This document shows, in pieces, positions 19,137-49,558 of a stretch of DNA of 64,000 bases. The stretch comes from a virus (lineage: Duplodnaviria > Caudoviricetes): positions 1-64,000 of the IMG/VR virus record IMGVR_UViG_3300021431_000100; one strand, given 5' to 3'. Position 1 is the stretch's first letter; every line of letters begins with the position of its first letter. A program made the position numbers and the translations under genes. The notes below the pieces were generated by a model. That model did no database searches, was not told the DNA's origin, and worked only from the letters and a program-made list of their open reading frames with translations.

Positions 19137-21248
19137 ATGTCAGATGGATTCGTAAATCTCCATGTTCACTCGGAACGTAGTCTTTTAGATGGTATGATAA
19201 AAGTAGATGATTTAGTTAAAACTACTTTGGAATATAATCAGATAGCCTCAGTTATCACAGACCACGGGAATTGCTATACGATTGTGGACCATTTTAAAGA
19301 GGCTAAAAAACAAGGACAACATGCCATTGCAGGTGTTGAGTTATATATGGTACAAGATATGTACAACAAAGGTGGTTCGGAAGGTGAAGCGGAGTCTGTT
19401 TCTAAACGAAATCACTTTTTGCTGCTCGCTAAAAACAAAGCAGGTTATCAGAAATTGTGCCGAATTGTATCTAAGGGATATACAGACGGTTTTTATTATA
19501 GACCTCGTGTAGACAATACTGTATTTGAGGAATTTCTTGATAAAGACGGCAAAGAAAATGACGTAATTGCAAGTAGTGCTTGCTTTGTAGCGGGCACAAA
19601 AGTTATTCTTGCTGATGGCACTTTAAAAAATATTGAGGAATGTGTAAAAGGTGATAAGGTAATTACACACTTAGGTACAGCGGAAGAAATTAAAGCACCA
19701 ACAAAGAGAATTTTTAAAGGACAAATTTTTAAGTTAAAAATTAAAGATAAACCTGATATTCGTTGTACTTCTGACCATAAGTTTTTTGTTCAAAGATTTA
19801 AAAATGCTGTTTTAAGTGAAAATGGCAAAAAAGAACTTAAATGCGTTTGGGCAGAAGCAAAAACTTTAAAGCGTAAAGATTATATGCTTGAACCTGTATC
19901 AAATTCAGAAGAAGCAGATATTGAGTTCGAGGGTGTATACTATAAAAGACACCAATTTTTACATTACGAAAGAAAATATTATAAAGAAATTACTGTACAT
20001 TGTTTGGCTGTTGAAAATACTCATTCATTTCTTGTTGAAGGGGGTATTTCTGCACATAATTGTCTTGCGGGGATTATTCCGCAATATATATTAAATAACG
20101 AAATTGAAAAGGCAGACGAAGTTGCTAAATATTATCAGCATTTGTTTGGTGGCAATTTTTGGCTTGAAATTCAGCCAATGGAAGGTTATGAGCAATATGT
20201 TGTTAATAAAGAAATTATTGCAATGTCTAAACGGTTAAATATTCCTATGATTGCTACTACTGACGCTCATTATCTTAAAAAAGAGGACAAGGCAACTCAT
20301 GATGTTTTGTTGTGTCTGCAGAGTAGTTCGTTGATTAGTGACCCAAATCGTTGGTCTTTTGCAGGTAATTCATATTACATTATGACCAAAGATGAAATTA
20401 CAGACTATTTTAAGCGTGGTTATCATTATAAGTTGGTCAAAACCCGTAATACCAAGAAAAATGCAACTTCTGAATTTAAATTGACTTATGTTCATGATTA
20501 TGACGGAGCGAAGTTTGAAGCCCCTGATAAGGTTATGAAGGATTTTGTTGAGATTGTTGAAGAAGGATATTTTAGTTATGCGGATTTAGACCAAGACGCA
20601 ATTGCACAAGCTATTGCAGAAACAGAACATGTAGCTCAAATGTGTGATTTTGAAATTGAACTTGGTAAGCATTATTTACCTAAGATAAAATTACCAACAG
20701 ACGACCCTAAGTTTGTTAGTTGGAGAAATAAATCTAAAAACAAAGGTAAATTAAACGAGGACTATCTTAGATATTTGTGTATTGGTGGTTTGATAAAACA
20801 TGGGCTTACAGATAAAAAATATAAAGATAGATTAAAGTATGAATTAAAAATTATTAACGATATGGACTTCCCCGATTACTTCTTGATTTATTACGATATT
20901 GCAAAATTCTGTTATGATAAAAACATTCCATTCGGCCCAGGTCGTGGGTGTTTTGTGGCAAATTCTATGGTAAAAACTGATACAGATACAGTTCCAATAC
21001 AGGATATTGAGATTGGTAGTAATGTATATTGCCACGATGAATTGTTACATCCTGTAGTAGCAAAACATGAATATGATATTGATGAGGATATTACGGATAT
21101 TGTATGTGGCGATAAGGCTATTAAAGGTGTTACATTAGACCACAAAATCTATGCGATTAAGCAAGAAGATTTTGATAAGGGCGTGCGTGAACCAAAATGG
21201 TATCACGCTAAAGAATTGAAAAAAGGTGATTATATTTGCGAATTGTAA
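19137..21248 (+). CDS. dnaE: DNA polymerase III alpha, N-terminal precursor (PHP domain + cis mini-intein + N-half of split intein)
   Basis: NLHVHS..SLLDG, TDHGN, HFLLLAKN..GY.KL, TTDAHY, F.DYFLIYYD and GPGRG. The ORF stops 99 aa after GPGRG with no polymerase core. Confidence 0.93.
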   Translation: MSDGFVNLHVHSERSLLDGMIKVDDLVKTTLEYNQIASVITDHGNCYTIVDHFKEAKKQGQHAIAGVELYMVQDMYNKGGSEGEAESVSKRNHFLLLAKNKAGYQKLCRIVSKGYTDGFYYRPRVDNTVFEEFLDKDGKENDVIASSACFVAGTKVILADGTLKNIEECVKGDKVITHLGTAEEIKAPTKRIFKGQIFKLKIKDKPDIRCTSDHKFFVQRFKNAVLSENGKKELKCVWAEAKTLKRKDYMLEPVSNSEEADIEFEGVYYKRHQFLHYERKYYKEITVHCLAVENTHSFLVEGGISAHNCLAGIIPQYILNNEIEKADEVAKYYQHLFGGNFWLEIQPMEGYEQYVVNKEIIAMSKRLNIPMIATTDAHYLKKEDKATHDVLLCLQSSSLISDPNRWSFAGNSYYIMTKDEITDYFKRGYHYKLVKTRNTKKNATSEFKLTYVHDYDGAKFEAPDKVMKDFVEIVEEGYFSYADLDQDAIAQAIAETEHVAQMCDFEIELGKHYLPKIKLPTDDPKFVSWRNKSKNKGKLNEDYLRYLCIGGLIKHGLTDKKYKDRLKYELKIINDMDFPDYFLIYYDIAKFCYDKNIPFGPGRGCFVANSMVKTDTDTVPIQDIEIGSNVYCHDELLHPVVAKHEYDIDEDITDIVCGDKAIKGVTLDHKIYAIKQEDFDKGVREPKWYHAKELKKGDYICEL
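19581..20060 (+). mobile_element. Cis mini-intein (160 aa, no endonuclease) in the DnaE PHP domain
   Basis: Starts CFVAGTKVILADG (block A), has TSDHKFF (block B) and ends ISAHN before C. Excision restores SSA|CLAG. Confidence 0.9.
20949..21245 (+). mobile_element. Split intein N-half (99 aa)
   Basis: CFVANSMVKT..VPIQDIEIG (block A), TLDHKIY (block B), W..AKELKKGDYI then a stop. Inserted at GPGRG|. Confidence 0.9.
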
Positions 21249-21266
21249 TATGTAATTAGTAGAAGA

Positions 21267-21294
21267 AAGGCGTGTGTGTTGTCATATGCCTTTT
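21267..21294 (+). terminator. Terminator-like hairpin after the dnaE N-half
   Basis: AAGGCGTGTG / CATATGCCTT stem (with G-U pairs) followed by TTTT. Confidence 0.6.
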
Positions 21295-21318
21295 ATATTG
21301 TAGAAAAGGAGTGAAAAG

Positions 21319-21636
21319 GTGAAAAGGTTGATTGCACAAGATTTAGATAGTTACTATGTCATTTTAGAAGACATGGTTAATGAAAATAAAAATGCTTTTG
21401 TATGTCGAACCGAAGGTGAAGCCCGCAAACTTTTTGAACAAGAAATTAATGATAATTTCATGGACGATATTATCACCAAAAATGAGTTTGAAGAAACTTA
21501 TGGTAAACCATATGACCAAGTTATACAGGAATGTTCTTTAGATTGTGAAGACGGACATTGCGTAGTAGAACAACATACAGAAGAAGAAATACAACAATTA
21601 AATAATGATGAAGGTTATATAACCATTTGGCTATAA
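21319..21636 (+). CDS. Small acidic hypothetical protein (KRLIA motif)
   Basis: GTG start with AAGGAG RBS, 105 aa. Confidence 0.6.
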   Translation: MKRLIAQDLDSYYVILEDMVNENKNAFVCRTEGEARKLFEQEINDNFMDDIITKNEFEETYGKPYDQVIQECSLDCEDGHCVVEQHTEEEIQQLNNDEGYITIWL

Positions 21637-21658
21637 ATATATATGAGGTGATTTGTAA

Positions 21659-22111
21659 ATGGCTGATGAAAAACATATTTCTTTTGGTAATTTAGCTAAA
21701 TTCAAAGAAAAATATGACGAAAAAGTAAGTGACGAATTAGCAAACAAAGTAGACGTTGTGGAAGGAAAAGGCTTATCCGCTAATGATTTCACTAACGAGC
21801 TTAAAGCTACTCTTGAATCTGCTTTGCAAGCAGATGATTTAACAGACTATGCTAAGAAAACTGATATTTCTAGCGTGTTTAAGTATAAAGGTAGTGTGGA
21901 AAATTATTCTGATTTACCTGTTGAAAATTCAGTAGGCGATACTTATAATATTATTAACGCCGATACTGAACATAATATTGATGCAGGAGATAATTTGACT
22001 TGGAATGGTGAAGGTTGGGATAACTTATCAGGCATAATAAATTTAACCCCTATTAACACTAAACTGAGTGAATTGGAAACCTCTATTGATAATATTGGTA
22101 AGGTAGAATTT
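21659..22111 (+). repeat. 453-nt near-identical direct repeat, copy 1 (copy 2 at 62921-63373)
   Basis: Both copies encode MADEKHISFGNLAKFKEKYDEK...NIGKVEF, co-linear without indels, and share the upstream TATGAGGTGAT RBS. Confidence 0.9.
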
Positions 22112-23089
22112 GCGAACAAAAAGGATATTGATGATATGTTTAAAGTACCTTATTTAACTTTTGCGACTACAAATCATGAAGTGATTAATCTTGCTAAACC
22201 TTACCAAATGAATTGGGACGGTGTGCTTGAATACTCAACTGATACTGTTAATTGGCATGAAATTGCTTCTAATACAAGTAATTACATAAAATTTTCTCCA
22301 ACAGGTAAGTTATATTTAAGAGGTTTGAATAATACAGTTATAAATTCAACTTTTCAATTTAATGCTCCATATGAAACAAGAGTAAAATGTATAGGTAATG
22401 TGGAAAATTTGTTAGATTATCAAAAAGTAGCTAATGGCGAGCACCCTACAATGGGGGAAAATTGTTTCAACGATTTATTTAGAGGTAATAACTTTTTAGT
22501 AAGTGCTCCTGAATTACCTGCCACTGTATTATCCAAAAACTGTTATAGCAACATGTTTAATTGGTGCATAAATTTAGCCGAAGCACCTGAACTACCTGCA
22601 ACTACATTAGCAGAAAGTTGCTATGAATATATGTTATATGGTACTAATATAACTGAAGCACCTGAACTACCTGCTACTGTATTATCCAAAAACTGTTATG
22701 GTAACATGTTTAGTTCGTGCAAACAATTAGTCAAAACACCTGAATTGCTTTCTACTGAATTAGCTTATGGTTGTTATAATAATATGTTTAGTAGTTGTAC
22801 TGCTTTAACACAAATTTCTGAATTACCTGCAACTGAATTAGAGGAACGTTGTTATAACAATATGTTTTACGGTTGTACTTCTTTGACAGCACCAATAGAC
22901 TTACCTGCTACTGTATTGGCAAAAGACTGTTATGTATATATGTTTATGGGATGTACTTCATTAACAGGTGTTGTTCATTGTCCTGCCTCGGTAGAAAATG
23001 ACCCTAATAATATTAGTAATGGTCATGGTTTTGCAAAAGATTATTCTGATGCTGAACTGCCTAATGTTACTGTTGTTTATGATTTATAA
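21659..23089 (+). CDS. Modular virion protein: conserved 151-aa head plus Cys-containing leucine-rich (BspA-like) repeats
   Basis: Head shared with ORF 62921. About six ~25-aa repeats of the form PELPATxLxxxCYxxMFxxCxxL (about 22500-22960). Confidence 0.7.
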   Translation: MADEKHISFGNLAKFKEKYDEKVSDELANKVDVVEGKGLSANDFTNELKATLESALQADDLTDYAKKTDISSVFKYKGSVENYSDLPVENSVGDTYNIINADTEHNIDAGDNLTWNGEGWDNLSGIINLTPINTKLSELETSIDNIGKVEFANKKDIDDMFKVPYLTFATTNHEVINLAKPYQMNWDGVLEYSTDTVNWHEIASNTSNYIKFSPTGKLYLRGLNNTVINSTFQFNAPYETRVKCIGNVENLLDYQKVANGEHPTMGENCFNDLFRGNNFLVSAPELPATVLSKNCYSNMFNWCINLAEAPELPATTLAESCYEYMLYGTNITEAPELPATVLSKNCYGNMFSSCKQLVKTPELLSTELAYGCYNNMFSSCTALTQISELPATELEERCYNNMFYGCTSLTAPIDLPATVLAKDCYVYMFMGCTSLTGVVHCPASVENDPNNISNGHGFAKDYSDAELPNVTVVYDL

Positions 23090-23119
23090 TAAAAAAAAGA
23101 CCTCATTATGAGGTCTTTT

Positions 23120-23443
23120 TTATGTTTGTTTGTAAAACATATTGATGAAAAATTCTGCTTTTTTGTTTGTTAAAGGGGAAAAATATTTTTTTTGGTAAGT
23201 ATCATATATCCATGCTGTATCAAAAAATCCATTACAATATGCTATAAATTTGCCGTTAATAAATTTGAAATGACCTTTGTTAATAGCGAAAGCAATCTTT
23301 TCTAATGTTTGTTCACTTGTTTTATCAAGATTAAATTTATTACAAATAACATCATAAATTTCCAAAGCAACTTTTAAAGAAATTCCATCACTTCCGATTG
23401 CTTTTGCCATTAAACATTTGATGACGTTTTTTAACATAATCAA
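23120..23443 (-). CDS. Hypothetical protein
   Basis: 107-aa ORF in a minus-strand cluster, AGGAG RBS. Confidence 0.55.
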   Translation of the reverse strand: MIMLKNVIKCLMAKAIGSDGISLKVALEIYDVICNKFNLDKTSEQTLEKIAFAINKGHFKFINGKFIAYCNGFFDTAWIYDTYQKKYFSPLTNKKAEFFINMFYKQT

Positions 23444-23887
23444 TTATTCCTCCTTAACCAAATTTAAAACAGCTATAGGCATAAATGAATATACCACGTC
23501 TCTCATTGCCTGAAATGGCATATCAACAAACATTACGTCGCAGGTTTGCTCTACTTTATAACCGATAAAATTTGTTAAAGGAAGCACTTCGTGAGAAATT
23601 GTTATATTTTTACCTTTGTGAATTAGAGGACAGAAAATAATACATGGTTTGTCAAATTCTTTTAGTCTGTCGAATTCCATGCGTGTCAATACAATCGCAT
23701 TTGGTAAATTACATAAACAAGACCCTGAACAACATAATAATGGGTCATCTCTAAAAGCGTCTGTCATATAAAAGCTTCCTTTTTTTGTTTTAATAACATC
23801 TTTAACACATTTTGCAAAAGCTTTGGAAAACTTTTCTTTTATAACATCAAATTCAAATTCAAAGTAATTAATATCTAAATAAATCAT
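23444..23887 (-). CDS. Hypothetical protein, paralog of 24270-24677
   Basis: Shared IIxCPL and xxFVDxPF motifs. Confidence 0.6.
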   Translation of the reverse strand: MIYLDINYFEFEFDVIKEKFSKAFAKCVKDVIKTKKGSFYMTDAFRDDPLLCCSGSCLCNLPNAIVLTRMEFDRLKEFDKPCIIFCPLIHKGKNITISHEVLPLTNFIGYKVEQTCDVMFVDMPFQAMRDVVYSFMPIAVLNLVKEE

Positions 23888-23943
23888 AGTTTGTACTCCG
23901 TTCTCAAAATAAATATATACGATTGACGTTTTAATTTATTTTA

Positions 23944-23972
23944 ATTATAGCAATAAATTAATAATTTGTCAA
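23944..23972 (-). promoter_or_regulatory. Consensus sigma70 promoter (minus strand)
   Basis: TTGACA-17-TATAAT preceded by an A-tract. Confidence 0.8.
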
Positions 23973-24099
23973 TAGTTTTTTTAAAGAAAGGAAACAGTAT
24001 ATGTAACGATTAATTGCATACTACAAGATTGTAGAAACGAATTACTTAAAATTATTGGTAATGATACTTTTGAAATCAAATAAAGAAAAGGGGCTATAA

Positions 24100-24261
24100 T
24101 CAGCCCCTTTTTTGTTCTTTTAAAATCTCAATTTGACGTTCAATGCATGGACTATAATGTTCACAGCCAATGTTGTTAACGTTTACCTGCTTTTTGAATT
24201 TAAAACACATTTCAAAAATATAGTTTTTACAATAGCCACAATAATTTACGTCGCTAGGCAT
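24100..24261 (-). CDS. 53-aa Cys-rich small protein, below the ORF-track cutoff
   Basis: GGAG RBS then MPSDVNYCGYCKNYIFEMCFKFKKQVNVNNIGCEHYSPCIERQIEILKEQKRG*. Confidence 0.55.
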   Translation of the reverse strand: MPSDVNYCGYCKNYIFEMCFKFKKQVNVNNIGCEHYSPCIERQIEILKEQKRG

Positions 24262-24269
24262 AATAATTA

Positions 24270-24677
24270 TCACTTCTCCTTGTTCTGAATTTCATAGGCA
24301 CAAAGAATATTGCCTAAATCGCACAAGAAAAACTGCTCTTTTTCCTCAAAAGGAACGTCTACAAACAAAATTGTACAAGGCTTTTCTCTACCTGTACCGA
24401 AAAAGGTTTTTGTATTGCCGTTTTCTACAAAAACATTAAATTCATTTTTATGGTTTACCAACGGACAGCATATAATAATACTGTCGGTAAATGTATTAAT
24501 CTTTTTGCCAAAGTCGGTGTGATGATAAGCGGTTGAATTGGGAATACAATCAATAAATGTACCACTTGCACCGAGGAAATCTTCTTCCATATATGCGTCA
24601 ACAAATGCCAATTTCTTGTTTGGGTTGCTTTCAATAATTTTAGTTAAAGCTTTAAAAACCATTTCCTTTTTATCCAT
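24270..24677 (-). CDS. Hypothetical protein, paralog of 23444-23887
   Basis: IIICCPLV and ILFVDVPF motifs, AAAGGTG RBS. Confidence 0.6.
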   Translation of the reverse strand: MDKKEMVFKALTKIIESNPNKKLAFVDAYMEEDFLGASGTFIDCIPNSTAYHHTDFGKKINTFTDSIIICCPLVNHKNEFNVFVENGNTKTFFGTGREKPCTILFVDVPFEEKEQFFLCDLGNILCAYEIQNKEK

Positions 24678-24734
24678 TTTTTACACACCTTTCTTGACTT
24701 AAATATCATTAAATTTATTTGATTCTGTATATTA

Positions 24735-24763
24735 ATAGTAGCAAATAAAATACTATTTGTCAA
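24735..24763 (-). promoter_or_regulatory. Sigma70 promoter (minus strand)
   Basis: TTGACA-17-TACTAT preceded by an A-tract. Confidence 0.7.
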
Positions 24764-24793
24764 TAGCTTTTTTTAATATAAAGGAGAATTTCG

Positions 24794-25261
24794 ATGAAAC
24801 GATTAGTTGCGACAACAAAACAAACACAAGAATTTGGTATAGATACAGACATAGAATTAAATTTGATACATGAAAAAGACCCACGCCTAAACAAAGATAA
24901 TTTACATAATTTTGCCAAGCAAAATAATGAAGGAGTAGAAGGTGGCATCTTCTATGAATTGGAAAATGGATTAATACATTTATATGTTGTGGAAACATTT
25001 TGGTTTAAAGATGTAGACCAAAAAGCAGGTAATGAAGTTAATAGAGTGGCTTATGTAGCTTCACGTTTACACGGAGACGGTACATTAGAGCAACCACAAT
25101 ATGTAGAAATCAAAGACAGTACCTCTCCTTCTGACGCAAAAGTTAGTAATGTAACTATTGAAGGTATGGGATTAGTAAAATTACAAGCACGTACTTTGGA
25201 TAGTGCAAGACAAGAATTAGCAACTATCTTTGACGATTATACAGACGATAAATTAGAATAA
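24794..25261 (+). CDS. Acidic hypothetical protein (KRLVA motif)
   Basis: AAGGAG RBS, 155 aa. Confidence 0.6.
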   Translation: MKRLVATTKQTQEFGIDTDIELNLIHEKDPRLNKDNLHNFAKQNNEGVEGGIFYELENGLIHLYVVETFWFKDVDQKAGNEVNRVAYVASRLHGDGTLEQPQYVEIKDSTSPSDAKVSNVTIEGMGLVKLQARTLDSARQELATIFDDYTDDKLE

Positions 25262-25274
25262 AGGAATTTATATT

Positions 25275-25967
25275 ATGGCTATTTATTGTTTACACGACGA
25301 TATTTTAAAATTACGAAACAAGCAAATTAACAAGGACGATATATTAACTTTTGACGACGGACATTATTCTGTATATAAATATAGAGAGCTTTTGGATTCT
25401 GTAGATTGCAAAAAAATATTGTTTATAACACCTTCTTATATTTCTTTGGATAAACGTACAGAAGAACCTGATTTGTCTGTATATTATCAGTGGTATTATA
25501 GAATGGAAGGTAAATCTCCTTGGCTTAATATATATGAAGTAGAAGATTTAATCAAAAATCATAATATAGAGCTTGGTATGCATTCTTATTTCCATGACAT
25601 TGTATATGTCAAAGGAAAGAATGACGAGGATAGATTGTGGCGTATGTATAAAATCAGTAAAGATTTAAATACCATGAAAACTTTAAATAAAATGTACGCC
25701 GTAAAATCAAAACTGAGTGTTGCGGGCTATGATATTTTGAATGGTCATTTGTATCAACGTAACGATGAGCAATTTACTGAATTTATTAAATCTGATACAT
25801 ATATGTGTATGGAATGGTTTAAAAAATATTTTGGTAAAATTGATAAGTATGCTTTCCCATTTTTTGATTCTTCTCAGGAACTTTTGAACGAACTTCACCA
25901 TTACGGCTTGAAAGACGAAAATCTTTTTGGCAAAAGATTAAATATTGTTAATGCTAAAGATTTGTAA
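25275..25967 (+). CDS. Polysaccharide deacetylase (NodB-homology)-like protein
   Basis: LTFDDG motif and ELGMHSYFH (HxxxH) metal-binding motif. Confidence 0.7.
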   Translation: MAIYCLHDDILKLRNKQINKDDILTFDDGHYSVYKYRELLDSVDCKKILFITPSYISLDKRTEEPDLSVYYQWYYRMEGKSPWLNIYEVEDLIKNHNIELGMHSYFHDIVYVKGKNDEDRLWRMYKISKDLNTMKTLNKMYAVKSKLSVAGYDILNGHLYQRNDEQFTEFIKSDTYMCMEWFKKYFGKIDKYAFPFFDSSQELLNELHHYGLKDENLFGKRLNIVNAKDL

Positions 25968-25999
25968 TCCTGTTGACAATATGATATAATATTGTTGAG

Positions 26000-26248
26000 G
26001 TGATAAATATGTGGTTAACTGCTCCATACGTAATTTCTTTGGAACAATTGACTAGCAACAATGTTGCTGTTCAGAAGTTTAATGAGATTACCAAGAAACT
26101 GTTAAATGAAGAAGAAAATAATTATATAGTTGTTGAAGTAAATGAATATAAAGATGATATAGTCGAAGTATTAAAGGCAATGGGTTATACTGTAGAAATT
26201 AACGGAAGCACATTGACTATTAGTGGTTGGACTATTGAAGAAGGTTGA
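26000..26248 (+). CDS. Hypothetical protein
   Basis: 82-aa ORF with GAGGTG RBS. Confidence 0.55.
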   Translation: MINMWLTAPYVISLEQLTSNNVAVQKFNEITKKLLNEEENNYIVVEVNEYKDDIVEVLKAMGYTVEINGSTLTISGWTIEEG

Positions 26249-26252
26249 TTTT

Positions 26253-26471
26253 ATGAAAACTGCACGAAAGAAAAAACGGTTAATACCATATCCATATAGC
26301 TATTCTCGTTATCCATATTTGTATGGATATGGGTTTTATCCTATGACACATGTTGATTACGATTTGGATAATCCAAATTCTAATGATAATACAAATACAG
26401 ATATTTCCTATAGCGATTGCGATTTCGGTGGCGACTTTGGTGGTTGCTGTGATTGCGGTGGCGGGGAATAA
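26253..26471 (+). CDS. 72-aa low-complexity peptide (basic / Tyr-Pro / acidic / Cys-Gly blocks)
   Basis: MKTARKKKRLIPYPYSYSRYPYLYGYGFYP...DCDFGGDFGGCCDCGGGE. Confidence 0.45.
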   Translation: MKTARKKKRLIPYPYSYSRYPYLYGYGFYPMTHVDYDLDNPNSNDNTNTDISYSDCDFGGDFGGCCDCGGGE

Positions 26472-26623
26472 AATAGATAGAGGTATAACATGTGTATATC
26501 TCTGAGTTCGATTAAACGGCTTTGCCACAAAGTGGTTTAATCTATGAACAAAAGTGCTTGTCACAGGTAGGCGTTCTGAACCAACAGGTGGCTAGGGAAA
26601 CCAAAAAGAAATGAACGCAAAAT

Positions 26624-26653
26624 AAAAAGCCCGAATTTATCGGGCTTTTTTTT
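26624..26653 (+). terminator. Intrinsic terminator upstream of the dnaE C-half
   Basis: AAAAAGCCCGA / TCGGGCTTTTTTTT. Confidence 0.85.
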
Positions 26654-26672
26654 GTTTTGGATATAAATTGAA

Positions 26673-26702
26673 TTGACAAAAAATCCGTAAAATCACTATG
26701 AT
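26673..26702 (+). promoter_or_regulatory. Promoter for the dnaE C-half
   Basis: TTGACA-18-TATGAT, then AGGAGG RBS (26721-26) 7 nt before GTG 26734. Confidence 0.65.
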
Positions 26703-26733
26703 AATACTACATTTAAGAAAAGGAGGTTTAAAT

Positions 26734-26847
26734 GTGAAATTTCGACAAATTACAGATACGAATGTTTATCACTATCAAGGAAAAGTTTTTGACTTAACGG
26801 TTGATAGAGCACATTCATATAATGTAAATGATTTTGTGGTTCATAAT
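26734..26847 (+). mobile_element. Split intein C-half (38 aa)
   Basis: MKFRQITD...VFDLTVDRAHSYNVNDFVVHN followed by Ser (+1 nucleophile): blocks F and G. Confidence 0.9.
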
Positions 26848-27408
26848 AGTGGTGCAGGTTCTTTGGTAAATTATGCACTTGGGATTACTCAGGTTAATCC
26901 TATGGACTATGATTTGATTTTTGAACGTTTCCTTAATCCAGACAGGGGACACTTGCCCGACATCGACTCAGATTTTGGTCCTACTAGAGGTTCAGAAGTG
27001 TTTGAACATCTTAATGAACTTTATGGCAAAGAAAATTGTTGTAATATTATAACATTCTCAAATCTTCAAGCAAGAGCGATTATTAAAGACGTATGCCGTT
27101 GTTTCGAAGTGCCATTGAATGAAGTAAACGCTGCTACAAAAGTTGTTCCGAAAGATATACATTCTTTTGACGAACTTTTGGAGATTGCAGAATTAAAAGA
27201 ATTTTTTGATAAACATAAGGGAGTTTATCAACATTGTGCTAAATTATATGGTGCACCTAGACATCATTCTCAACATCCTGCGGGAATTTGTGTATTACCG
27301 TTCCCTGTAACGGATATACTTCCTGTAGAAAATGCTACACCAACCATTCATAATATGGTTGGGTTAATGTCTCAGTATGAGAAGGAAAATGTTGAATTGG
27401 TTGGGGGT
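26734..27408 (+). CDS. dnaE: DNA polymerase III alpha, C-terminal precursor exon 1 (C-half intein + palm domain)
   Basis: After ...VVHN comes SGAGSLVNYALGIT, FERFLNPDR..LPDIDSDF (catalytic Asp pair) and SQHPAGI. The exon ends VELVGG at the 5' splice site. Confidence 0.92.
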
Positions 27409-45507: not shown

Positions 45508-45540
45508 TCCTCACTGTTTTTAAACAGTGAGGATTTTTTT
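45508..45540 (+). terminator. Intrinsic terminator insulating the cas operon
   Basis: TCCTCACTGTT / AACAGTGAGGA followed by a T-run. Confidence 0.85.
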
Positions 45541-45560: not shown

Positions 45561-45589
45561 TTGACATTTTATTGAGTTTGTGATTTAAT
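45561..45589 (+). promoter_or_regulatory. Promoter of the cas operon
   Basis: A-tract, TTGACA-17-TTTAAT with extended -10 TG. Confidence 0.7.
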
Positions 45590-45646: not shown

Positions 45647-46849
45647 ATGGCAAAAAAGAAAAATACTAGTAACACCACAACCGCTACTACTGCACCTGTT
45701 AAGGAATTGACCAACTTTTCTTTGGAACGCAGTTTGTTTGTTTCAAGTGCAGGAAAGCTCAGTGCTGTTAAGTGGGAAAACCGACATGGAATTCAGGCAG
45801 ATGTTCTTATCGACAAATTTCAGGGTGGTGCAAATGCTTGTAAAACCCACTATATGAAAGACGAGGCTACTATTTTAGCGGAAGCTTGTGACAACAATAC
45901 TCAGCAAGACCTTGATATATGTCACCTTCCTGTAGGATTTGATACTTTGTGCTTGGAATTTTCTGTGGAGGCACAGCCATTTAACAAGAAGCGAATTTCC
46001 GCTTGTAATCTTATGTCAGTAAGAAAGCGTTTGGCTTCCCTTGTTACTGAGTATGTAACTAATTGGGGATTTAAGGACATTGCAGTGCCTTATGTAAACA
46101 ACGTGGTTAATGGTTGTAGTTTGTGGAGAAATCAGAACAGTGCTGACGAGATTATAACTGAAATCGAGATTGGCAATGGTAAGCAGTTTGTTTTCAATTC
46201 TTTTAACTACGACCAGAACAAGTTTACAACAAACGACCCTCAGATTAACGAGATTGCAGATATGATTGCCGACACCCTTTGTGGGAAGCAGAGATTGTTC
46301 AAGATGACTGTCCGTATTTATGCTCGCCTTGGTGACAGACATATTGTATATCCTTCTCAAAACCTTATTATGGACACTAAAGGCAAGTTCCTTTATGAGT
46401 TGAATTCCGACCACCTTGCAGGACTGCATGACACTAAGATTGGTGCCGCGTTGCGTCGTATTGATACTTGGTATCCAGATTATATTAATAACAATAAAGA
46501 ACCTATTCCTGTATACGCTTATGGTCAGGATAGAACTGAGAACATTGTTCATAGATATTCTTTTGACAGCAATATTTATGGATATATTAAGACTTGGTTG
46601 CTTGAAGAACAGGATATTCCTGACGAAGCAAAGCATTTTGTTATGAGTTGTTTCGTTTTTGGTGGAGTATTTAACCCAAAAAATAACAATGACAAGAACG
46701 ACGCTAACAATAATAACAATGCTGACGCTAATGGCGATAAGACTGAAACTAACGATAGTGAAGTTAAGGCTGAGGCTGAGGAAACCGTTAAGACTGACGT
46801 TAACAAAAATGAGGCTGACGACGCTAACGCTACTTTGGCTATGTTTTGA
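45647..46849 (+). CDS. cas7f: Type I-F Cascade backbone Cas7f (Csy3) with a low-complexity C-terminal tail
   Basis: SLERSL, D.CHLP..DTL...FSV, Y..N..NG.SLWRN, VYPSQ, LHDTKIGAALRRIDTWY, PIPV.AYG and HFVMS.FV.GGVF. Confidence 0.9.
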   Translation: MAKKKNTSNTTTATTAPVKELTNFSLERSLFVSSAGKLSAVKWENRHGIQADVLIDKFQGGANACKTHYMKDEATILAEACDNNTQQDLDICHLPVGFDTLCLEFSVEAQPFNKKRISACNLMSVRKRLASLVTEYVTNWGFKDIAVPYVNNVVNGCSLWRNQNSADEIITEIEIGNGKQFVFNSFNYDQNKFTTNDPQINEIADMIADTLCGKQRLFKMTVRIYARLGDRHIVYPSQNLIMDTKGKFLYELNSDHLAGLHDTKIGAALRRIDTWYPDYINNNKEPIPVYAYGQDRTENIVHRYSFDSNIYGYIKTWLLEEQDIPDEAKHFVMSCFVFGGVFNPKNNNDKNDANNNNNADANGDKTETNDSEVKAEAEETVKTDVNKNEADDANATLAMF

Positions 46850-46862
46850 GGAGGTTTGAATA

Positions 46863-47405
46863 ATGTTTAGTCAGGAGATTGTGTTGGATGAACCGAGCAC
46901 TCACATGTTGAGTAATGTAATGAAAAAACTGCATGGTCTGTTTAGTCAGGAGGTAAATTGTGGGAAATTCGCTGTGTCTTTCCCACAGCATTCCTTCAAT
47001 AACAAGAAAGAACTCCAACTTGGCAATACAATTAGCGTTTTGTGCAACGAAGAAAAAACTTTGGCTGATTTAAATTTGTTACAGGAGTTTTCTGAATGGA
47101 AACTTCTTACCGTTAAGCCTAACATTACAAGTGTTGATAAATATTGTCTGTTTAAACGGGCACACCTTCATTCTTACAAGGCTCATGTAACAAGAAAAAT
47201 GAAGCGTGGAACACTGACTAATACAATTGATTTGTTTCAAGCACAAGAAAAGAAAAAGGAAGAATTTTCAAAACATGCGTGTTTGAAAATGTCAAGTAAA
47301 TCTACAAGACGTTATATGAAGCTGTATATTACAAAAAGCAAAAACGTTGAAAATGCCAAGTTCAATTCTTATGGATTGGTTACAGAAAGGATTAGTAATG
47401 GCTAA
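46863..47405 (+). CDS. cas6f: Type I-F crRNA endoribonuclease Cas6f (Csy4)
   Basis: KKLHGL (catalytic His), AVSFP, LG..I.V, SKST...LYI and FNSYGL. Confidence 0.82.
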   Translation: MFSQEIVLDEPSTHMLSNVMKKLHGLFSQEVNCGKFAVSFPQHSFNNKKELQLGNTISVLCNEEKTLADLNLLQEFSEWKLLTVKPNITSVDKYCLFKRAHLHSYKAHVTRKMKRGTLTNTIDLFQAQEKKKEEFSKHACLKMSSKSTRRYMKLYITKSKNVENAKFNSYGLVTERISNG

Positions 47406-48519
47406 GAAGAAGAAAGAACCAAAAGATTTTAAAACTGAAACTGAACATGCGATTAACAAGTTGGTTAAGGCTAATACTTTTAAAAAGATGTTGGCAAATG
47501 ACTGTTTTGACTCTACAATGTTTGCAACCCACGTTTCAAAGTTTTTGCATACTAAAATTAGCTTAAATAACGTTGCCAATTTGTTTGATGATTCGGTTGC
47601 AGATAATCGTGATTATTTATGTACTGCAAATTCGGGTTATAGTGACCCTGATATTATTTTTAATGGAGCAACCGTTAAAGCTATGCTTGCGACATTTTTA
47701 TCATGTGAAATTACATATAAAGATGCACAAGGAGTTGAGAAGATTGTTACCATATTGCAGTTATTAAAAGACGATTACAAATATTTACGTGACGCTATAA
47801 CATATTTGATTGACGAGAATTATCTTTTTGTTGTGGACGATTATGACGATTTTCGTAATAAGGCGTTGAGTTGTGTTAAAACTCCTATGCCTATAAATTC
47901 TAGCCCATTGAACAATCAGATTTATTTCCCTGTTGCTGAAAATGACTATGTTTTGCTTGACCCTATTCCTTCTACTGTACTTTTTAAAGAGGTGCATAAT
48001 AAGTTAAAAAATGTAAAAAATGTTTCAAAAATTCGTTATGCTATGGGTAGCGATAAGTGGAGAAACACAACCACGAGCAAGATTGTTACCAAAACAGGCG
48101 ATTTCGTCACGAGAGATATGTCTGCTAATTATATGTTCCTTACTTTGCCCCCACAAAGCTTGTTGAAAAAGAATAAGCGTAAGGTAATTTATCCAAAATT
48201 TAATGTGGAAAATATGCAAGGTGTACAGAACGGAATGCTTATTGATGACACTTTGCTTGATACAATTTGTAAAGAAGGTCTGAGAGGTCGGGCTACTGCC
48301 AAGGCTGAACGTGCAGAACGTGACGACAGTGTTAAGAGAAACTTTTTGGAAAAATATGGTTGGAGTGTAATCCCCAACGGATATGAAATTCATCATATTA
48401 TCCCAATTTCTCAAGGTGGAGCAGATGCAGTAGAAAACATGATTTTGTTAACAAAAGCACAACATGCAATTATTACTCGTTGCCATTCTGCATATTTTGG
48501 GTGGCACATGAGGGTGTAA
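47398..48519 (+). CDS. cas8f: Cas8f (Csy1) with a C-terminal HNH nuclease (Cas8-HNH), 373 aa
   Basis: ATHVSKF.H, DI..NGA and NQIYFPV..NDY.LL.P.PS..LF (Csy1 N-terminal domain), then EIHHIIPISQGGADAVENMILLTKAQH (HNH). ATG 47398 overlaps the cas6 stop. Confidence 0.85.
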   Translation: MAKKKKEPKDFKTETEHAINKLVKANTFKKMLANDCFDSTMFATHVSKFLHTKISLNNVANLFDDSVADNRDYLCTANSGYSDPDIIFNGATVKAMLATFLSCEITYKDAQGVEKIVTILQLLKDDYKYLRDAITYLIDENYLFVVDDYDDFRNKALSCVKTPMPINSSPLNNQIYFPVAENDYVLLDPIPSTVLFKEVHNKLKNVKNVSKIRYAMGSDKWRNTTTSKIVTKTGDFVTRDMSANYMFLTLPPQSLLKKNKRKVIYPKFNVENMQGVQNGMLIDDTLLDTICKEGLRGRATAKAERAERDDSVKRNFLEKYGWSVIPNGYEIHHIIPISQGGADAVENMILLTKAQHAIITRCHSAYFGWHMRV

Positions 48520-48531
48520 AAGGAGGCAACT

Positions 48532-49350
48532 ATGGGGAAGTATGTTTTGATTGACGGAGTAGAAATTTTTGGTGCGAATGCATTTCATCGCATTTGTGTA
48601 GGTACTCCAGCTATGACAGCGTTAATGGGCTTTGTAGAAAAGTTGAAAAATGAACTGAGGGAAGAATATAATAATCCTGCCATTAATATAGAAGCGGGAT
48701 TTATTATTAATGATTATTGGCTTGACGCAGTTAAGGACTCAAAATATAAGTCGCTTCACATGAACGCAAAGACTGTAGAATATTATCGTGGTGACAGTAA
48801 CCATTCACAAAAAAAGATTTTGAGTTGTCAGTCAGTGTCTAATCAGGCGTATATGGATTTAAACATGTCGTTTCTTTTAAAAATTGAAAATTTGCAAATT
48901 ACCAATGACGTAACATGTTTTATTAAAAATATAGTTGAAACTTTGCGTGTTGCGGGTGGTAAAATTACAGAAGTTGACGACGTGTTTGAAATTGAAGACC
49001 TTCAAGACGTAGAATGGGGTGGACGTTTTATTACCTGCGAACAACATGCTTTGAATGAAGCAGAGGGTGACAATATGCTTGACAAGATGATTAAAGCTTG
49101 TCAGGATGATTATAGACTGAAAGTAATTCCTTATGGATATAGACAGGAAACCCCGTTTCGTTTAAATGTTAAAAATGTACGAGAAGAAAATGTACCACAT
49201 TGTTTTGTTGAATCAATTTATACATTGATTAAATTTAAACATATTTCTGAAATTGAAAGCATTGATGAGCTTTGGTGGCATTATGAATATCGTGAAGGTA
49301 GCAACAATGATGGTATTTTCATTTGTACACAAGAAAAATCAGTTGAATAA
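48532..49350 (+). CDS. cas5f: Type I-F Cas5f (Csy2)
   Basis: I.GANA...I.VG.PAMTALMGFV..L, LRVAGG.I and FVES.Y.L. AGGAGG RBS. Confidence 0.85.
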   Translation: MGKYVLIDGVEIFGANAFHRICVGTPAMTALMGFVEKLKNELREEYNNPAINIEAGFIINDYWLDAVKDSKYKSLHMNAKTVEYYRGDSNHSQKKILSCQSVSNQAYMDLNMSFLLKIENLQITNDVTCFIKNIVETLRVAGGKITEVDDVFEIEDLQDVEWGGRFITCEQHALNEAEGDNMLDKMIKACQDDYRLKVIPYGYRQETPFRLNVKNVREENVPHCFVESIYTLIKFKHISEIESIDELWWHYEYREGSNNDGIFICTQEKSVE

Positions 49351-49366
49351 ATTGCTAAAAAAAATA

Positions 49367-49396
49367 TTGACAAACACTCTTTAATTAACATATAAT
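49367..49396 (+). promoter_or_regulatory. Promoter upstream of ssb
   Basis: A-tract, TTGACA-18-TATAAT. Confidence 0.7.
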
Positions 49397-49461
49397 ATTT
49401 TATGTCAGGAATATTAAACAATTGCAGTGACAATCAATATTCGCTGACATAAAATATTATA
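49391..49461. repeat. Long inverted repeat between cas5f and ssb
   Basis: TATAATATTTTATGTCAG (49391-408) is the exact reverse complement of 49444-461. The stem extends inward with GAATATT/AATATTC. Confidence 0.85.
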
Positions 49462-49558
49462 GCTACATTGACCGAGTTGCCACACATGCACTACAGCTAA
49501 TATAGCATATCAAGCAAACTAGGTACAATGTAATACAGTTAATGGAGGTATTTTATTT

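What the first reader, a model, noticed from the sequence alone, without database searches (positions are those of the whole stretch)
45647..49350. Phage-borne, Cas3-less type I-F effector with an HNH nuclease fused to Cas8
Seen: four co-oriented genes, insulated by a terminator (45508) and their own promoter (45561), read as cas7f, cas6f, cas8f and cas5f. The Cas8 is short (373 aa). Its Csy1-like motifs end before residue ~250 and the C-terminus is an intact HNH (EIHHIIPISQGG..ENMILLTKAQH) where canonical Cas8f has a helical bundle. No cas3, cas1 or cas2 is in the window. Established: a type I-F variant with Cas8-HNH, characterised from a Selenomonas locus, cuts DNA precisely without Cas3. 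Inference: this phage carries a complete minimal RNA-guided nuclease among its replication genes (upstream of ssb/thyX), in a cas7-cas6-cas8-cas5 order that differs from the canonical cas8-cas5-cas7-cas6. It could act against competing phages/MGEs or the host chromosome, and may be a compact editing tool.
Basis: partly seen in the sequence, partly recalled or inferred. Interest (0 to 1): 0.92.

Follow-up and report, generated by a model that had tools for sequence, protein, structure and literature searches.

The report
Jumbo-phage Cas8-HNH CRISPR effector without array
A giant sheep-rumen bacteriophage carries all four genes of the rare, already characterised "Cas8-HNH" CRISPR nuclease (variant I-F4), kept intact by selection, but no guide-RNA array was found in the 115 kb of phage DNA that could be read.

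Summary
ORFs 45647-49350 are cas7f, cas6f, cas8f-HNH and cas5f by Pfam, NCBIfam and PADLOC. Each has its best solved-structure match in the Selenomonas Cas8-HNH Cascade (Cas8 E 9e-47, about 36% identity). The HNH catalytic residues are conserved and the domain models as beta-beta-alpha.

The carrier is a phage G-like jumbo phage from sheep rumen; a collinear contig is 333 kb. It is probably a phage of Selenomonadaceae.

- The cas7-cas6-cas8-cas5 order is the normal order of this family, now called I-F4. It is not a phage peculiarity.
- The system is not shown to be complete. Cellular relatives, and a second phage-like relative (L110), have their array next to cas5. Here there is no CRISPR array, and not even a degenerate I-F repeat, in 115 kb of phage DNA. 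About two thirds of the genome is unsampled.

Seven population variants give pN/pS 0.13 with no frameshift, so the genes are in use.

The most likely reading is an active Cas3-independent nuclease whose crRNAs are encoded elsewhere in the phage or borrowed from the host. This is a new, deep-branching, phage-borne member of a known kind. Other first-stage notes of this scan on the same genome had already flagged the cassette as array-less.

The parts
45508..45533 (+). Intrinsic terminator closing the upstream operon (11-bp stem followed by a T run)
45561..45589 (+). Candidate promoter of the cas operon: TTGACA, 17-nt spacer, TGaTTTAAT (extended -10)
   Evidence: Read. Not listed by the consensus scan, so plausible only
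45647..46849 (+). cas7f (Csy3), 400 aa. It has a phage-specific T-rich insertion at residues ~6-18 and an acidic, N-rich tail at residues 347-400
   Evidence: PF09615 E 6.7e-65. Best PDB match 8w1p_A, E 4e-48. Tail absent from relatives; 14 D/E against 5 K/R
46863..47405 (+). cas6f (Csy4) crRNA endoribonuclease, 180 aa
   Evidence: PF09618 E 7.7e-17. The only PDB match is the I-F4 Cas6, 8w1p_I. H24, S145, S147 and Y170 are invariant among I-F4 Cas6f
47398..48519 (+). cas8f-HNH, 373 aa: Cas8f N-terminal domain, linker, and C-terminal HNH nuclease in place of the helical bundle
   Evidence: (E 9e-47 to 8ydb_J, query 36-370 against chain 30-342), and (Foldseek top 15 hits are all Cas8-HNH)
48181..48519 (+). 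Linker end and HNH domain (residues ~262-373), with catalytic H332-H333, N347 and H356
   Evidence: pLDDT 75-92. beta 329-333, beta 348-352, helix 353-367. Invariant columns in A1. H333 aligns with Selenomonas H305, whose H305A mutant is dead (PMC11480323)
48532..49350 (+). cas5f (Csy2), 272 aa
   Evidence: PF09614 E 4.3e-24. PADLOC Cas5f 8.6e-29. Best PDB match 8w1p_H, E 4e-38
49351..49558 (+). cas5-ssb spacer, at the place where relatives carry their CRISPR array. It holds a perfect TTGACA-18-TATAAT promoter (49367-49396) and a long hairpin (49391-49461), but no repeats
   Evidence: (z -5.7)

Best explanation
The four genes encode a working type I-F4 (Cas8-HNH) Cascade carried by a rumen jumbo phage.

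Inferred mechanism, by homology with the solved Selenomonas complex:
- Cas6f cuts a pre-crRNA at a repeat hairpin and stays on its 3' end.
- Six Cas7f line the 32-nt guide.
- Cas5f and the Cas8 N-terminal domain cap the 5' handle and read the PAM.
[quoted passage not shown] No Cas3 is needed.

The cassette has its own promoter and lies in the replication and recombination gene block, so it is probably expressed during infection.

The guide is not encoded beside the genes. It must come in trans. The most likely source is a small array in the unsampled ~225 kb of the >=333-kb genome. The less likely source is host arrays.

Shown here: gene identities, intact catalytic motifs, purifying selection, the phage carrier, and the absence of an adjacent array. 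Inferred: assembly, cleavage, the source of guides, and the targets.
For: Identity. Family profiles match all four proteins. All four have their best PDB match in the I-F4 Cascade 8w1p/8ydb: Cas8 E 9e-47, Cas7 4e-48, Cas5 4e-38, Cas6 1.5e-16.

Nuclease and processing sites. The HNH residues H332, H333, N347 and H356 are invariant across nine family members. H333 aligns with H305, which is essential in Selenomonas. The model shows a beta-beta-alpha HNH at pLDDT 75-92, and the Foldseek top 15 hits are all Cas8-HNH chains, best E 2e-20. The Cas6f His, Ser and Tyr positions are invariant.

Selection. Seven independent phage contigs, 98.6-100% identical, carry 53 synonymous and 27 non-synonymous changes. 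Overall pN/pS is 0.13, and cas6 has 0 non-synonymous changes. The only coding indel is an in-frame 3-nt deletion, and there are no stop codons.

Phage carrier:
- It is an IMG/VR virus record.
- It has UvsX-like, PhoH, tail-fibre, helicase and DNA polymerase PHROGs.
- It has a gp32-like SSB, ThyX, SbcCD-like proteins and RuvC.
- The best isolate hit is Bacillus phage G, 49% identity.
- It is collinear with a 333,100-bp contig that holds a 13-tRNA cluster.

Expression signals. A terminator and a candidate promoter lie upstream.

A precedent for a small phage-side array: the distantly related phage-like L110 has two mini-arrays around cas5.
Against: No CRISPR array and no solitary or degenerate I-F-type repeat was found in G000 (88.9 kb) plus about 18 kb more of the 333-kb contig. 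All cellular relatives and L110 keep the array next to cas5.

The PAM-reading residues of the Selenomonas Cas8 (D83, K85, R88) align with G90, T92 and A95. Three of the six mutated sensor-helix residues differ (with PMC11480323). Activity and PAM therefore cannot simply be transferred.

The Cas8 N-terminal domain modelled poorly, with whole-model pLDDT 58.

The phage proteins sit on very long branches.

No expression data could be obtained.
Confidence: 0.68

Rival explanations
1. Guide theft. The phage encodes no array at all. Its Cas6f and Cascade load crRNAs from the host's own I-F or I-F4 arrays. This either redirects an HNH cut onto the host's catalogue of rival phages and plasmids (superinfection exclusion) or soaks up host crRNAs as an anti-CRISPR.
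For: No array in 115 kb, yet all four genes, including the crRNA-processing cas6f, are under purifying selection. The likely host family is Selenomonadaceae, the family where cellular I-F4 occurs: a Selenomonadaceae chromosome holds 2.1 kb that is 90% identical to the phage, with foreign GC. Published precedents: huge phages that may use host Cas components (PMC7162821); CASTs that bind host crRNAs through Cas6 (PMC11656645); an array-less phage Cas9 proposed to capture host crRNAs (PMC10910872).
Against: I-F4 is rare even in the likely host family, with full-length Cas8-HNH in 3 of 262 species genomes. The one genome with the shared segment has no I-F repeats and no Cas7f detected. The phage proteins are only about 35% identical to the Selenomonas ones, so repeat compatibility is unproven. 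An intact HNH loaded with host spacers would endanger the phage if the host holds spacers against it. None of 59 I-F4 spacers matches the phage. About two thirds of the phage genome is unread.
Confidence: 0.17
2. Stranded remnant. The cassette lost its array and is on its way to decay, or it has been put to a guide-independent use such as DNA binding or nicking in recombination or replication.
For: The array-less state differs from all relatives. Branches are long. Cas7f has unusual additions, including an acidic tail. The cassette lies among recombination and replication genes.
Against: pN/pS is 0.13 with no disruption in seven variants, and cas6f has zero amino-acid changes. The catalytic and RNA-processing residues are intact. 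The cassette has its own promoter and terminator.
Confidence: 0.1
3. Not phage-borne. The contig is a mis-called bacterial or plasmid fragment.
For: The record is only about 50% complete by CheckV. A Rep_1 gene lies on the long contig. No capsid or terminase gene was identified in the sequence read.
Against: No cellular housekeeping genes. Many phage hallmark families are present. There is a tRNA cluster. The closest isolate is jumbo phage G. GC is a uniform ~33% with one-directional gene blocks.
Confidence: 0.04

Closest known systems
Type I-F4 (Cas8-HNH, 'HNH-Cascade', I-F_HNH) of Selenomonas sp. RGIG9219. References: Altae-Tran 2023 (PMC10910872); structures 8w1p, 8ydb, 8z0k, 9sit (PMC11459484, PMC11480323, PMC12848945); named I-F4 in PMC12669027
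   Same: Same four genes in the same order. No cas3, cas1 or cas2 in the sequence read. Cas8 N-terminal domain, linker and C-terminal HNH, with the same catalytic H-H...N...H. Full-length homology of all four subunits.
   Different: Only 30-36% identical, and on a long branch. No adjacent 28-nt repeat array. The PAM-contact residues differ. Cas7f carries an N-terminal insertion and a 54-aa acidic tail. It is carried by a jumbo phage rather than a bacterial chromosome.
Vibrio phage ICP1 type I-F CRISPR-Cas (Seed 2013; PMC10161043; reviewed in PMC11656645)
   Same: A phage-encoded type I-F Cascade, used by a phage in conflicts with other genetic elements.
   Different: ICP1 has Cas2-3, Cas1 and its own arrays, and it degrades targets processively. 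The system here has no Cas3, Cas1 or array in the sequence read, and it has an HNH domain on Cas8.
CRISPR-Cas systems of huge phages (Al-Shayeb 2020, PMC7162821)
   Same: A jumbo-phage carrier. Loss of the adaptation genes. The published idea that components may be shared with the host. Compact arrays.
   Different: The passages of that paper read here mention no Cas8-HNH or I-F4 system. The type I variant named there is a I-C type with a helicase in place of Cas3.
L110 (ENA ERZ28436058 NODE_607): unpublished, phage-like I-F4 locus found here
   Same: AT-rich (34% GC) phage-like contig. It shares NrdG, a phosphoesterase and one more gene with this phage at about 50% identity. It has the same cas order.
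   Different: It has two mini-arrays, of 7 and 5 degenerate repeats, on either side of cas5. Its Cas7 and Cas5 group with a cellular locus (L006), not with this phage.

Membership tests
Type I-F4 (Cas8-HNH) CRISPR-Cas | Cas8f whose C-terminal helical bundle is replaced by an HNH nuclease domain | tested here: met
   The Csy1 profile is matched only over positions 19-191 of 378, followed by HNH. Full-length alignment to 8ydb_J, E 9e-47. Foldseek top 15 hits are Cas8-HNH chains.
Type I-F4 (Cas8-HNH) CRISPR-Cas | Intact HNH catalytic residues (Selenomonas H305 and the metal ligands) | tested here: met
   H332, H333, N347 and H356 are invariant in A1. H333 aligns with H305. beta-beta-alpha topology at pLDDT 75-92.
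Type I-F4 (Cas8-HNH) CRISPR-Cas | Cas7f, Cas5f and Cas6f of the I-F lineage in one operon, in the order cas7-cas6-cas8-cas5 | tested here: met
   Same order in L004, L006, L008 and L110.
Type I-F4 (Cas8-HNH) CRISPR-Cas | Absence of Cas3 (typical of the variant) | tested here: met
   No TIGR02562 or Cas3_HD match in the 88.9-kb record. The rest of the genome was not searched.
Type I-F4 (Cas8-HNH) CRISPR-Cas | Cognate CRISPR array of 28-nt I-F-type repeats with 32-nt spacers next to the cas genes | tested here: not met
   No array or I-F-like repeat in 115 kb. The same scan finds the arrays in every relative, which serves as a positive control. About 225 kb of the phage genome could not be read.
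Type I-F4 (Cas8-HNH) CRISPR-Cas | crRNA-guided, PAM-dependent double-strand cleavage at the PAM-distal end | not testable with these tools
   Needs reconstitution. The PAM-contact residues of the Selenomonas protein are not conserved.
Bacteriophage (jumbo, phage G-like) | Viral hallmark genes and genome organisation | tested here: inconclusive
   Replication, recombination and tail-fibre PHROGs, a tRNA cluster, an IMG/VR call and similarity to phage G. No capsid, portal or terminase gene was identified in the part read.

The most novel reading that the evidence does not exclude
An array-less, phage-encoded Cas8-HNH Cascade that arms itself with crRNAs it does not encode. The guides would be host I-F-type guides or a non-canonical phage RNA. 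The host's immune memory would then become a phage weapon against rival elements, or the cassette would act as a nuclease-active anti-CRISPR decoy.
Probability: 0.17. Interest if true: 0.85.

Novelty: new member of a known kind. Interest (0 to 1): 0.6.

Why it matters
Cas8-HNH (I-F4) is a rare system. Only about six clusters at 50% identity were found among 1.84 billion representative proteins. It is under active development as a precise genome editor that needs no Cas3.

This is a deep-branching orthologue, about 35% identical, with different PAM-contact residues. It could widen the PAM range and the available scaffolds.

In the papers I could search, I-F4 is described only from bacteria. Finding it on a jumbo phage, and on a second phage-like contig, shows that phages also use this self-contained nuclease. 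That makes sense for a phage, which needs interference without Cas3 or adaptation genes.

The separation of effector and guides is the open biological question. It can be tested once the full genome is read.

Tried and rejected
Searches for a guide in the phage DNA, all negative:
- k-mer and offset-match scans for any CRISPR-like periodic repeat.
- Fuzzy matches to known I-F, I-F4 and L110 repeats, and hairpin-plus-handle searches.
- A covariance model built from 28 I-F repeats, run with and without filters. Nothing scored below E 3, and the best hits lie inside genes and lack a stem.
- Rfam.

The D1 repeat at 22.5-22.9 kb is a protein-coding, leucine-rich-type repeat, not a CRISPR.

The long hairpin after cas5 (49391-49461) was considered as a delocalised crRNA and rejected. 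It is an inverted repeat overlapping the ssb promoter's -10 box, with no I-F repeat features.

Searches for relatives of the phage:
- IMG/VR holds no other full-length Cas8-HNH, no close Cas7f and no close relative of the phage polymerase.
- A 363-kb IMG/VR phage with an I-F array is unrelated.

A scan of JGI metagenomes for the I-F4 repeat found only 4 contigs. None of the 59 unique I-F4 spacers hits the phage.

Two upstream look-ups failed.

Complex prediction was not used: a pass would only mirror the solved homologue.
Full report
**What is there**

Between a strong intrinsic terminator (45508-45533) and the ssb gene lie four tightly packed, co-oriented ORFs. Pfam, NCBIfam and PADLOC name them Cas7f/Csy3 (E 6.7e-65), Cas6f/Csy4 (7.7e-17), Cas8f/Csy1 and Cas5f/Csy2 (4.3e-24).

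The Cas8 protein matches the Csy1 profile only over its first half (profile positions 19-191 of 378). It ends in an HNH domain (PF01844, E 1e-5), and the nearest NCBIfam HNH matches are IscB and Cas9.

The ATG at 47398 (373 aa) is the likely start. It has an AAAGGA ribosome-binding site and the same 8-nt overlap with cas6 as relative L004.

TTGACA lies at 45561. It is followed after 17 nt by TGaTTTAAT, which reads as an extended -10 box. The consensus scan did not list this site, so the promoter is plausible, not established.

**Which family**

Each of the four proteins has its best match among solved structures in the Selenomonas sp. Cas8-HNH Cascade (8w1p, 8ydb and others):

| Subunit | E-value | Note |
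|---|---|---|
| Cas8 | 9e-47 | query 36-370 against chain 30-342 |
| Cas7 | 4e-48 | |
| Cas5 | 4e-38 | next best hit 4.5e-8 |
| Cas6 | 1.5e-16 | the only hit |

In an alignment of nine family members, H332, H333, N347 and H356 are invariant. H333 aligns with H305, whose alanine mutant is inactive (PMC11480323).

An AlphaFold model built from this shallow alignment is poor for the N-terminal domain (mean pLDDT 58). The last ~110 residues model at pLDDT 75-92 as strand 329-333, strand 348-352 and helix 353-367, the beta-beta-alpha-metal topology. The 15 best Foldseek hits are all Cas8-HNH chains (best E 2e-20). Canonical Cas8f and the colicin and pyocin HNH DNases follow.

Cas6f keeps the invariant His24, Ser145, Ser147 and Tyr170. 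From my own memory of P. aeruginosa Csy4, these correspond to its catalytic His29, Ser148 and Tyr176. That correspondence was not tested here.

The 2025 CRISPR classification calls this family variant I-F4 (PMC12669027).

**The gene order is not special to the phage**

Cellular loci L004, L005, L006, L008 and Selenomonas ruminantium (L027, L028) all read cas7-cas6-cas8HNH-cas5. Where the contig continues past cas5 (L004, L008, L027, L028), an array of 28-nt repeats (GTKTACCGCCGNNTAGGYGGTTTAGAAG) with 32-nt spacers follows within about 100 nt.

**The carrier**

The window is the first 64 kb of an 88,870-bp IMG/VR virus record that CheckV rates 50% complete.

Near-identical contigs come from sheep-rumen metagenomes (SHIW14-1 samples, SRR8735xx-8736xx). 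One collinear contig is 333,100 bp.

The sequence read encodes:
- a UvsX-like recombinase, PhoH, tail-fibre proteins, helicases and a split DNA polymerase;
- a gp32-like SSB, ThyX, an SbcCD-like pair and RuvC;
- a cluster of 13 tRNAs, further along the long contig.

The best isolate match of the recombinase is the 497-kb Bacillus phage G, at 49% identity.

I found no capsid, portal or terminase gene in the part I could read, so 'phage' rests on these other hallmarks.

**Host hint**

A Selenomonadaceae species genome (G194) has a chromosomal contig carrying MetA and SerA. That contig holds 2.1 kb that is 90% identical to window 58002-60141, which covers two genes of unknown function. The segment has 36% GC against 44-46% in its flanks, so it looks foreign in the bacterium and phage-like in composition. 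This points to Selenomonadaceae as the host family. That is also the family where cellular I-F4 was first found.

**The missing guide**

At the spot where relatives have their array, the phage has 208 nt. These hold a perfect TTGACA-18-TATAAT promoter for ssb and a long hairpin (49391-49461; z -5.7) whose 5' arm overlaps the -10 box. It contains no direct repeats.

I scanned G000 and about 18 kb more of the 333-kb contig for any repeat with CRISPR-like spacing. I also looked for fuzzy copies of I-F, I-F4 and L110 repeats, and ran a covariance model built from 28 I-F repeats with filters on and off. Nothing scored better than chance. The same scans recover every array in the relatives.

No cas1, cas3 HD or cas2-3 is present in the record.

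About 225 kb of the genome remained out of reach, so an array elsewhere is entirely possible.

**Is the cassette in use?**

Seven independently assembled phage contigs, 98.6-100% identical, differ at 53 synonymous and 27 non-synonymous sites in the four genes. Overall pN/pS is 0.13.

| Gene | pN/pS |
|---|---|
| cas6 | 0 |
| cas5 | 0.06 |
| cas8 | 0.10 |
| cas7 | 0.24 |

The only coding indel is an in-frame 3-nt deletion. There is no stop codon or frameshift. This argues against a decaying remnant. Because cas6f is the most constrained, it suggests that a pre-crRNA is being processed.

**How common, and how related**

An exhaustive HMMER search of 1.84 billion cluster representatives found only about six full-length Cas8-HNH clusters. 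IMG/VR holds no other. Four JGI metagenome contigs carry the I-F4 repeat. Three of 262 Selenomonadaceae species genomes have the gene.

One further cluster (P0009, 30 members) lies on L110, a 40.6-kb, 34% GC contig. L110 is full of small unknown ORFs, phage-type HNH endonucleases and an NrdG gene, and it shares three genes at about 50% identity with this phage. L110 does have arrays: seven degenerate repeats between cas8 and cas5, and five after cas5.

In small Cas7 and Cas5 trees, L110 groups with the cellular locus L006 (support 94/94 and 82/90). This phage sits alone on a very long branch. The two phage-side cassettes are therefore not obviously sisters. The trees are too small to say more.

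**Differences from the Selenomonas system**

| Selenomonas residue(s) and role | In the phage protein |
|---|---|
| D83, K85, R88 (PAM-reading) | align with G90, T92, A95 |
| K42 | conserved as K48 |
| T332, H335, W341 (sensor helix) | conserved |
| E329, E333, K340 (sensor helix) | not conserved |

(with PMC11480323)

Cas7f has a T-rich insertion near its N-terminus and a 54-residue acidic tail (14 D/E against 5 K/R). Neither is present in the relatives compared. With six Cas7 copies per complex, the tail could matter for DNA binding or regulation. That is speculation.

**Verdict**

It is a new, divergent, phage-borne member of a known and already characterised kind, not a new kind.

The claim of a complete RNA-guided nuclease is not supported, because no guide source was found. 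Where the guides come from is the interesting open point.

I searched the held literature for Cas8-HNH, HNH-Cascade and I-F4 and found no report of a phage-borne example. The library is incomplete, so I cannot exclude one.

Other first-stage notes of this scan on the same genome had already called the cassette orphan. I tested that and agree, within the sequence available.

Noticed in passing
L110:8470-12540 (ENA ERZ28436058 NODE_607): A second AT-rich, phage-like contig carries a I-F4 cassette. It has two mini-arrays of degenerate repeats (GTTATCYACCGYRYAGGTRGYTTAGAAA): one between cas8-HNH and cas5, with irregular spacers of 24-37 nt, and one after cas5. It shares NrdG, a phosphoesterase and one more gene with this phage at about 50% identity.
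   Followed up: partly
window 58002-60141; L114:12472-14614: Two genes of unknown function (466 and 235 aa) are 90% identical in DNA to a segment in a Selenomonadaceae chromosome contig that carries MetA and SerA. There the segment has foreign GC (36% against 44-46%). This looks like recent phage-host gene exchange and is a host clue.
   Followed up: partly
window 46685-46849 (Cas7f residues 347-400): A 54-aa acidic, Asn-rich, low-complexity tail on Cas7f (14 D/E against 5 K/R), plus a T-rich insertion at residues ~6-18. Both are absent from the two cellular I-F4 Cas7f aligned (L006, L008). The solved Cas7f chains match only up to residue ~346.
   Followed up: partly
window 49367-49540: The ssb 5' region has a perfect sigma-70 promoter whose -10 box is the start of a ~70-nt near-perfect hairpin (z -5.7). 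A second long-range stem follows. No SNP falls between 49391 and 49644 in seven variants. It may be a translational or transcriptional operator of the gp32-like SSB.
   Followed up: partly
L108:17100-17480 (333-kb contig, ~57 kb downstream of the cas genes): A promoter is followed by three copies of a GCATAAnnAnGTTCCTTTTAA motif (spacing 118 and 90 nt) and then a terminator, right after the tRNA cluster. It has no Rfam match and does not look like a I-F repeat.
   Followed up: no
L029 (Anaerovibrio lipolyticus), L030 (Mitsuokella sp.); P0010-P0030: Many stand-alone proteins of about 220-250 aa match only the linker and HNH part of Cas8-HNH (residues 264-370) at 40-50% identity. Several are in Selenomonadaceae. 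They are possible donors, or relatives, of the fused nuclease.
   Followed up: no
L057, L059-L061, L063, L064 and other IMG/VR loci: At least 25 IMG/VR viral contigs carry a single, solitary I-F repeat. This fits the published solitary repeat units and RNA anti-CRISPRs.
   Followed up: no
window 22493-22966: Six tandem ~78-nt units inside ORF 21659-23089 encode a leucine-rich-type protein repeat. A 16-nt stretch matches one I-F4 spacer of L008, which I judge to be chance.
   Followed up: partly
window 19137-31222: The DNA polymerase matches are split between ORFs 19137-21248 and 29498-31222. Another first-stage note reads this as a DnaE with inteins and a group I intron. I did not check it.
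   Followed up: no
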